Below are positions 1 to 386 of a DNA stretch of 386 nucleotides, piece after piece (within the stretch, counting starts at the first letter, position 1; every line of letters begins with the position of its first letter). This stretch comes from Escherichia coli (GTDB taxonomy: Bacteria > Pseudomonadota > Gammaproteobacteria > Enterobacterales > Enterobacteriaceae). The position numbers and the translations under genes are program-made. The stretch is taken from the NCBI RefSeq assembly GCF_003334255.1, contig NZ_QOWU01000250.1; one strand, given 5' to 3'. The notes beneath the pieces were generated by a model that was given only the letters and a program-made list of their open reading frames with translations, did no database searches and was not told the origin of the DNA.

Positions 1-386
1 TCCTGGTATGCCGGTGCTGAAGTGGGTTACCGCTATCATGTCACAGAGGATGCCTGGATTGAGCCACAGGCGGAACTTGTTTACGGTGCTGTCTCCGGGA
101 AACAGTTCAGCTGGAAGGACCAGGGAATGAACCTCACCATGAAGGATAAGGACTTTAATCCGCTGATTGGCCGTACCGGTGTGGATGTGGGTAAATCGTT
201 CTCCGGTAAGGACTGGAAAGTGACGGCACGTGCCGGTCTTGGCTACCAGTTTGACCTGCTGGCGAACGGAGAAACGGTACTGCGTGATGCATCCGGAGAG
301 AAGCGTATTAAGGGCGAGAAAGACGGCCGTATGCTGATGTCTGTGGGTCTGAACGCAGAGGTCCGTGACAACATCCGTTTTGGTCT
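1..386 (+). CDS. Partial CDS (truncated at both ends): C-terminal beta-barrel translocator domain of a serine-protease autotransporter (SPATE / type Va secretion); the window covers roughly the last third of the barrel and stops about 25 codons before the expected C-terminus
   Basis: Seen in sequence: frame 1 is open across all 128 codons, while + frames 2 and 3 contain stops (TGA 128-130; TGA 18-20). The translation shows beta-barrel character: alternating aromatic/hydrophobic dyads (WYAGAEVGYRYHV, AWIEPQAELVYGAV, WKVTARAGLGYQFDL, MLMSVGLNAEVRDNIRFG), tight turns (TED, KDKD, SGKD) and an aromatic-rich composition. Established knowledge (recalled, not searched): this closely matches my memory of the conserved SPATE beta domain (EspP/Hbp/Pet-type), which continues to a C-terminal ...FRYSF beta-signal. 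The gene symbol is left blank because the beta domain is near-identical among SPATE paralogues; candidates include espP, pet, sat, pic, tsh/hbp, vat, sigA, sepA and espC. Confidence is about 0.9 for an autotransporter beta-barrel and about 0.7 for SPATE specifically. Confidence 0.85.

What the first reader, a model, noticed from the sequence alone, without database searches (positions are those of the whole stretch)
259..330. Long, highly charged loop (LANGETVLRDASGEKRIKGEKDGR) between predicted strands
Codons 87-110 break the amphipathic beta pattern and are rich in Lys/Arg/Glu/Asp and Gly (RDASGEKRIKGEKDGR). In a 12-stranded autotransporter barrel the long loops are extracellular, so this is a candidate surface-exposed loop that could be immunogenic or affect barrel gating. 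It lies between the strand WKVTARAGLGYQFDL (codons 72-86, nt 214-258) and the strand MLMSVGLNAEVRDNIRFG (codons 111-128, nt 331-384).
Basis: inference. Interest (0 to 1): 0.25.

Follow-up and report, generated by a model that had tools for sequence, protein, structure and literature searches.

The report
Known L5 hairpin of SPATE barrel
The charged segment is extracellular loop 5 of the outer-membrane barrel of EaaC, a prophage-encoded serine-protease autotransporter; the same loop has been solved and tested in its close relatives EspP and Pet, so the finding is correct but ordinary.

Summary
The window is 100% identical to eaaC of prophage P-EibC (E. coli ECOR-9). It encodes residues 1183-1310 of a 1335-aa SPATE autotransporter, inside its 277-residue beta-barrel. 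That stretch is 93% identical to the EspP barrel, which has solved structures.

The flagged segment (aa 87-110, nt 259-330) is real. It is extracellular loop L5, between strands beta9 and beta10. It is 23/23 identical to EspP L5 and 22/23 to Pet L5.

It is not an unstructured loop. It is a beta-hairpin: ETVLRD, an AS turn, then GEKRIK. An AlphaFold model shows this, and it matches published EspP/Pet work.

Published experiments show that this hairpin nucleates folding of the secreted passenger domain. They also show it switches from an open state (3SLJ) to a closed state folded into the pore after cleavage (2QOM).

The main known function was missed, and immunogenicity is untested.

L5 is strongly conserved within the EspP-type clade (pN/pS about 0.05). 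In distant SPATEs only its length and turn motif are kept.

The charge cluster alone is not beyond chance: 50% of shuffles reach it.

Verdict: already known, low interest.

The parts
214..255 (+). Transmembrane strand beta9 (aa 72-85, WKVTARAGLGYQFD; EaaC 1254-1267)
   Evidence: DSSP strand E231-244 in the AF2 model (model position = window aa + 159). Gap-free alignment to EspP 1219-1232.
256..324 (+). Extracellular loop L5 (aa 86-108, LLANGETVLRDASGEKRIKGEKD; EaaC 1268-1290; EspP 1233-1255)
   Evidence: 23/23 identical to EspP and 22/23 to Pet. Yuan 2018 defines a 23-residue L5 connecting beta9 and beta10 at the extracellular surface.
271..288 (+). L5 hairpin strand 1 (aa 91-96, ETVLRD; Pet E1233-D1238, EspP E1238-D1243). 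This is the strand proposed to template passenger folding by beta-augmentation.
   Evidence: DSSP E250-255 in the AF2 model. In Pet, mutating these residues to Gly or Pro abolishes passenger folding.
289..294 (+). Hairpin turn (aa 97-98, AS), within the conserved motif [RK]-D-x-[AS]-G-[ED]
   Evidence: Non-strand positions 256-257 in the model. The motif is kept in all SPATE-like barrels that are at least 49% identical.
295..312 (+). L5 hairpin strand 2 (aa 99-104, GEKRIK; Pet G1241-K1246)
   Evidence: DSSP E258-263 in the AF2 model. Yuan 2018.
325..363 (+). Transmembrane strand beta10 (aa 109-121, GRMLMSVGLNAEV)
   Evidence: DSSP E268-280.
364..372 (+). Periplasmic turn T5 (aa 122-124, RDN).
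   Evidence: Non-strand positions 281-283 in the model.
373..384 (+). Start of strand beta11 (aa 125-128, IRFG)
   Evidence: DSSP E284-294.
94..162 (+). Extracellular loop L4 hairpin (aa 32-54). It pairs with L5 strand 1 in a four-stranded sheet in the open state.
   Evidence: DSSP E193-199 and E202-208. The L4-L5 sheet in 3SLJ is described by Yuan 2018.

Best explanation
The segment is extracellular loop L5 of the 12-stranded beta-barrel (translocator) domain of the prophage-encoded SPATE autotransporter EaaC. It forms a beta-hairpin of two 6-residue strands that projects above the outer membrane between strands beta9 and beta10.

By direct homology to Pet and EspP, where the hairpin residues are identical, it most likely works in two steps. 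While the passenger domain emerges through the barrel, the first hairpin strand (ETVLRD) hydrogen-bonds to the C-terminal part of the unfolded passenger by beta-strand augmentation. This nucleates folding of the beta-helix. After the intra-barrel Asn-Asn self-cleavage releases the passenger, L5 swings from the open position into the barrel lumen, which is the closed position.

Shown here: gene identity, topology, hairpin prediction and conservation. Inferred from homologues: the folding-template role and the open/closed switch in EaaC itself.
For: - Identity of the gene: the window is 100% identical to eaaC of phage P-EibC. Full-length EaaC has GDSGSP at residue 260, the FINEVNN|LNK cleavage site, a 277-residue beta-domain and the equivalent of EspP D1120.
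- Homology: the window is about 93% identical to EspP barrel chains with no gaps, E = 4.5e-80. The numbering offset (window aa i = EspP residue 1147+i) is confirmed by the published deletions E1238-K1251 and E1238-E1253, which land on E91, K104 and E106.
- Structure: in the AF2 model (pLDDT 86.3), strands 250-255 and 258-263 are ETVLRD and GEKRIK, exactly the Pet L5 strands. The model matches pre-cleavage EspP 3SLO/3SLJ at TM 0.94-0.95 and RMSD 1.6 A.
- Function in homologues: deleting L5 or breaking its strands in Pet, and deleting L5 in EspP, abolishes passenger folding without affecting barrel assembly or cleavage (PMC5895577). A later review and an Ag43 preprint describe the same role.
- Constraint: L5 has pN/pS 0.054 against 0.166 for the whole window. 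L5 is 91-100% identical across barrels that are 79-97% identical overall.
Against: - No experiment exists on EaaC. According to the 2010 SPATE review, its expression had not even been verified.
- The EaaC passenger is under 25% identical to that of Pet, so the interacting passenger segment is unknown.
- As quoted by Yuan 2018, Barnard 2007 saw no defect from an L5 deletion in a truncated EspP construct.
- The model's confidence in L5 is moderate (pLDDT about 75-84).
- The pN/pS contrast comes from six non-independent paralogues. By my own rough estimates (not computed in any call), it is not significant on single pairs.
Confidence: 0.85

Rival explanations
1. L5 is mainly a pore plug, or gate. 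Its conserved charged sequence exists to dock into the barrel lumen after passenger release and reseal the outer membrane. Passenger-folding assistance is secondary.
For: - 2QOM shows L5 folded into the pore, hydrogen-bonded to several strands.
- The L5 amino-acid sequence is under strong purifying selection in the EspP-type clade (pN/pS 0.054, hairpin 0.048).
- This holds even though heterologous hairpins from FadL, EstA and AIDA-I can replace it for passenger folding. That leaves room for a second, sequence-specific role.
Against: - As quoted, deleting L5 in EspP had no effect on barrel stability, translocation or cleavage.
- Distant SPATE barrels (Hbp/Tsh-like) keep the loop's length but only 30-43% of its sequence, and have lower charge.
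- No permeability data were found.
Confidence: 0.25
2. L5 is principally a surface-exposed antigenic loop, shaped by host immunity or by phage or colicin recognition.
For: It is extracellular, hydrophilic and protrudes in the open state. [quoted passage not shown]
Against: - L5 is as conserved as the transmembrane strands (0.85 against 0.79-0.90) and more conserved than L4 or L2.
- Its pN/pS of 0.054 is among the lowest in the window.
- There is no length variation among SPATEs. These patterns are the opposite of diversifying selection.
- No epitope data were found.
Confidence: 0.05
3. The charged stretch is a chance compositional fluctuation with no specific role.
For: Half of the random shuffles of the beta-domain contain an equally charged 24-aa window.
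Against: The hairpin is identical to a structurally and functionally characterised element. It is also under purifying selection despite synonymous divergence of about 0.42.
Confidence: 0.02

Closest known systems
EspP beta-domain loop L5 (PDB 2QOM, 3SLJ/3SLO/3SLT, and BAM-EspP cryo-EM structures such as 7TTC and 8BO2)
   Same: L5 is 23/23 identical (aa 86-108) and the window is about 93% identical with no gaps. The AF2 model superposes at RMSD 1.6 A. The position between beta9 and beta10 is the same.
   Different: Residue 109, the first residue of beta10, is Gly in EaaC and Ser in EspP. The passenger domains are unrelated beyond the SPATE fold. EaaC is prophage-borne, whereas EspP is plasmid-borne.
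Pet beta-domain L5 hairpin (Yuan et al. 2018, PMC5895577)
   Same: Hairpin strands ETVLRD and GEKRIK are identical, and L5 is 22/23 identical. The barrels of Pet and EaaA/EaaC are over 90% identical.
   Different: Pet has Phe where EaaC and EspP have Leu at aa 87, below the hairpin. The passenger domains are under 25% identical. The function has been tested only in Pet and EspP.
Hbp/Tsh-type SPATE barrel L5 (PDB 3AEH)
   Same: Same 23-residue length, same turn motif (KDAAGE against RDASGE) and same terminal KD. The fold matches at TM 0.81-0.90.
   Different: Only 39-43% identical in L5 against about 60% overall, and less charged (26-35% against 43%).
L4/L5 hairpins of non-SPATE classical autotransporters (Ag43, AIDA-I, EstA, BrkA)
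   Same: Extracellular beta-hairpins on a 12-stranded barrel that promote passenger folding or translocation. EstA and AIDA-I L5 can functionally replace Pet L5.
   Different: There is no detectable sequence similarity in the loop. In Ag43, L4 and L5 appear redundant and only delay folding when removed.

Membership tests
Classical (type Va) autotransporter beta-domain | Match to the autotransporter beta-domain profile (Pfam PF03797 / TIGR01414) | tested here: met
   PF03797 E = 1.8e-19 on the window. TIGR01414 scores 71.4 bits on the window and 236 bits on the full protein, against a cut-off of 16.
Classical (type Va) autotransporter beta-domain | 12-stranded beta-barrel with a linker helix in the pore | tested here: met
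   The AF2 model has 12 long strands plus the L4 and L5 hairpins and N-terminal helices. TM is 0.94-0.95 to EspP and 0.77-0.86 to NalP. This is a prediction, not an experimental structure.
SPATE (S6 peptidase autotransporter) | Serine protease motif GDSGSP in the passenger domain | tested here: met
   GDSGSP at EaaC residue 260. RefSeq annotates close copies as 'S6 family peptidase'.
SPATE (S6 peptidase autotransporter) | Conserved FxxEVNN|LNK intra-barrel cleavage site and a beta-domain of exactly 277 residues | tested here: met
   FINEVNNLNK at residue 1053. Asn1058/Asn1059 are followed by a 277-residue C-terminal domain counted from N1059. The criterion comes from PMC3153244.
SPATE (S6 peptidase autotransporter) | Lumen-facing catalytic Asp (EspP D1120) | tested here: met
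   EaaC D1155 aligns to it, and the column is invariant in 45 sequences (D132). It lies outside the window.
SPATE (S6 peptidase autotransporter) | Actual secretion, self-cleavage and protease activity | not testable with these tools
   As of the 2010 review, expression of EaaA and EaaC had not been verified.
L5 beta-hairpin passenger-folding template (Yuan 2018) | Loop connects beta9 and beta10 on the extracellular side | tested here: met
   Strand order in the model, gap-free alignment to EspP L5 and the published topology.
L5 beta-hairpin passenger-folding template (Yuan 2018) | Hairpin with a first strand of about 6 residues and beta-strand propensity | tested here: met
   DSSP E250-255 and E258-263, with pLDDT about 75-84. 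The residues are identical to the Pet and EspP hairpin.
L5 beta-hairpin passenger-folding template (Yuan 2018) | Removing or disrupting the hairpin prevents passenger folding but not barrel assembly or cleavage | not testable with these tools
   Shown for Pet and EspP only.
L5 beta-hairpin passenger-folding template (Yuan 2018) | Open (pre-cleavage) to closed (post-cleavage) conformational switch | tested here: inconclusive
   The model includes the linker and resembles the open pre-cleavage state (RMSD 1.6 A to 3SLJ against 4.6 A to 2QOM). No post-cleavage model or coordinates were examined.

The most novel reading that the evidence does not exclude
Within the EspP/Pet/Sat/SigA/EspC/EaaC-type barrels, the exact L5 amino-acid sequence is held almost invariant (pN/pS about 0.05, with synonymous divergence about 0.42). 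Yet experiments show that unrelated hairpins can substitute for it in passenger folding. This mismatch could mean that L5 has a second, sequence-specific job that has not been assayed. One candidate is charge-matched docking into the lumen to reseal the barrel after cleavage. Another is a specific contact during BAM-assisted assembly.
Probability: 0.25. Interest if true: 0.35.

Novelty: already known. Interest (0 to 1): 0.08.

Why it matters
The finding adds little. It correctly locates a well-studied structural element, loop L5 of SPATE barrels, in a poorly studied prophage-borne family member, EaaC.

Its practical value is for annotation. The experimental results on Pet and EspP L5 can be transferred to EaaC with high confidence, because the hairpin is identical.

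One question remains mildly open. The sequence is so conserved within the clade, yet the folding function tolerates replacement. Yuan et al. raised this question themselves.

Tried and rejected
- Non-coding explanations. There was no Rfam match at E <= 1 on either strand. There was no meaningful repeat, only one 10-nt pair. RNA folding of nt 240-350 is not better than shuffles (z = -0.66). The other reading frames hold only ORFs of 45 aa or fewer. All rejected.
- Charge cluster as a statistical signal. Rejected: 50% of shuffles reach the same density.
- Primary EspP structure and cleavage papers (PMC2551741, PMC3230255, PMC1847664). None is held in the library. L5 details therefore come from Yuan 2018 and from reviews.
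- BAM-EspP cryo-EM preprint and a 2026 BAM review. Neither says anything specific about EspP L5.
- NCBIfam equivalog naming of the full protein. Only the generic barrel domain matched, with no SPATE-specific equivalog.
- Post-cleavage AF2 model to test the closed state. I considered this and did not run it.

Full report
**1. What the window is**

Frame 1 of the + strand is open over all 386 bases. The other five frames contain only ORFs of 45 aa or fewer.

The DNA is 100% identical to the eaaC gene of prophage P-EibC from E. coli ECOR-9 (AF151674.1). In that record eaaC lies downstream of the immunoglobulin-binding trimeric autotransporter gene eibC. The window is 99% identical, with four synonymous differences, to chromosomal 'S6 family peptidase' genes in STEC and other E. 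coli.

Window residue i corresponds to EaaC residue 1182+i.

Full-length EaaC is 1335 aa and has the SPATE hallmarks:
- GDSGSP at residue 260.
- The FINEVNN|LNK self-cleavage site.
- A C-terminal domain of exactly 277 residues.
- The lumen Asp equivalent to EspP D1120 (criteria from PMC3153244).

The window matches the autotransporter beta-domain profiles.

**2. Checking the observation**

The segment is 46% K/R/D/E against 24% in the rest of the window. It is the most charge-dense 24-residue stretch in the entire protein.

The charge density is not beyond chance on its own. Half of 5000 shuffles of the beta-domain contain an equally charged window. The significance of the segment comes from homology and structure.

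**3. What it is**

The window aligns without gaps to the EspP barrel chains in the PDB (E = 4.5e-80, about 93% identity). This gives window aa i = EspP residue 1147+i.

That offset is independently confirmed. The published EspP L5 deletions, E1238-K1251 and E1238-E1253, fall on E91, K104 and E106 of the window.

The finding therefore corresponds to EspP 1234-1257. This is extracellular loop L5, which connects beta9 and beta10.

I built an AlphaFold2 model of the last 312 residues from a 45-sequence alignment (mean pLDDT 86.3, pTM 0.80). It gives:
- beta9 = aa 72-85.
- L5 = aa 86-108.
- beta10 = aa 109-121.
- A periplasmic turn, RDN, at aa 122-124.
- beta11 starting at aa 125.

Inside L5 the model has two 6-residue strands, ETVLRD (91-96) and GEKRIK (99-104), joined by an Ala-Ser turn. 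These are exactly the residues that Yuan et al. define as the two strands of the Pet L5 hairpin, E1233-D1238 and G1241-K1246.

The model superposes on pre-cleavage EspP structures (3SLO, 3SLJ, 3SLT) at TM 0.93-0.95 and RMSD 1.6 A. It fits the post-cleavage structure 2QOM less well, at RMSD about 4.6 A.

The 'loop' is thus a structured, protruding beta-hairpin.

**4. How it most likely works**

The experimental evidence comes from the homologues.

In Pet, three changes each leave barrel assembly and Asn-Asn self-cleavage intact but leave the passenger unfolded and protease-sensitive:
- Truncating L5.
- Replacing its first strand with Gly or Pro.
- Grafting in a shorter OmpF hairpin.

Grafting hairpins of similar length from FadL or EstA, or the shorter AIDA-I hairpin, restores folding. 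The equivalent EspP L5 deletion abolishes accumulation of the secreted passenger (PMC5895577).

The proposed mechanism is beta-strand augmentation. The first L5 strand pairs with the C-terminal part of the emerging passenger and nucleates the beta-helix. A review and an Ag43 preprint describe the same role.

L5 also adopts two conformations in EspP crystals. Before cleavage (3SLJ) it is open and forms a four-stranded sheet with L4. After cleavage (2QOM) it is closed, folded into the pore.

EaaC L5 is 23/23 identical to EspP L5 and 22/23 to Pet L5. I therefore transfer this mechanism to EaaC with high confidence. It remains an inference, because EaaC itself has not been studied and its expression was unverified as of the 2010 review.

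**5. Conservation**

Across 28 SPATE-like barrels, the mean major-residue fraction in L5 is 0.85. That is comparable to the transmembrane strands (0.79-0.90) and higher than L4 (0.76) or L2 (0.51).

I made codon-level counts over six paralogues: eaaC, pet, sat, sigA and two plasmid SPATEs. Results:

| Region | pN/pS |
|---|---|
| L5 | 0.054 (pS 0.42) |
| L5 hairpin | 0.048 |
| Whole window | 0.166 |
| L4 | 0.221 |

This is a crude estimate. The sequences are not independent. One sequence is a frameshifted pseudogene near its 3' end. By my own rough estimates (not computed in any call), single-pair contrasts are not significant.

The conservation is specific to one clade:
- In barrels at least 79% identical overall, L5 is 91-100% identical.
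- In Hbp/Tsh-like and other SPATE barrels at 50-61% overall identity, L5 identity falls to 30-43%, and the charged fraction falls to 26-35%.

What stays constant across all of them is the 23-residue length, the [RK]-D-x-[AS]-G-[ED] turn and the terminal KD.

This fits a requirement for hairpin geometry rather than for a particular sequence. It also leaves open a clade-specific, sequence-dependent second role.

**6.

- Topology (extracellular loop of a 12-stranded barrel): correct.
- Gating: some structural support from the closed state, but no phenotype in the one reported deletion.
- Immunogenicity: not tested, and not suggested by the pattern of variation.
- The hairpin structure and the established folding-template function were missed.

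**7. Novelty**

This is an already known element in a known family, and nothing about it is unexpected. The one mildly interesting point, strong sequence constraint despite experimental replaceability, was already raised by Yuan et al..

Noticed in passing
window 61-170 (end of beta7 through L4): This is a mosaic patch. Here eaaC is 96.4% identical to pet and sat, against about 83-85% in the flanking parts of the window. It is also where eaaA and eaaC differ most: 88.2% identical, against 100% and 98.6% in the flanks. That suggests a recombination or gene-conversion tract covering L4.
   Followed up: partly
window 19-21 and 73-75 (aa E7 and E25): Both Glu residues are invariant in all 45 aligned barrels (E166 and E184 of the model). 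They correspond to EspP E1154 and E1172. From memory, these are lumen residues implicated in the Asn-cyclisation self-cleavage. I could not confirm this because the primary papers are not held.
   Followed up: partly
L001 1-7400 (E. coli S19-651 chromosome): The near-identical chromosomal copy has the same neighbours as in P-EibC: a YadA-like (Eib-type) gene, then a hypothetical gene, then the SPATE. Next to it lie a truncated ompW pseudogene and yciE/yciF and the trp operon, which suggests a prophage inserted at ompW.
   Followed up: no
L001 6440-6462 compared with L002 7300-7324: The C-terminal beta-signal differs between copies. EaaC ends ...NAGFRYSF, while the S19-651 protein ends ...NASFCYSF, with an unusual Cys in the last strand.
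   Followed up: no
L009 (E. coli FHI_NMBU_10), codon equivalent to window aa 106: A natural L5 variant has E106G (GEKD becomes GGKD), just after the second hairpin strand. It is the only nonsynonymous L5 change seen among the close eaa-type copies.
   Followed up: no
L008 (plasmid pZ1323CEC0012_1-3): The most divergent copy found by megablast (78.5% identical) is annotated as a frameshifted pseudogene. Its translation departs from the family after about aa 121 of the window. Its L5 carries RFE in place of RIK, as in the EspC-like proteins.
   Followed up: no
window 301-306 (aa K101-R102): The second L5 strand contains a dibasic Lys-Arg pair. From general knowledge, that is the kind of site preferred by the outer-membrane protease OmpT. 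I did not test whether the exposed hairpin is cleaved.
   Followed up: no
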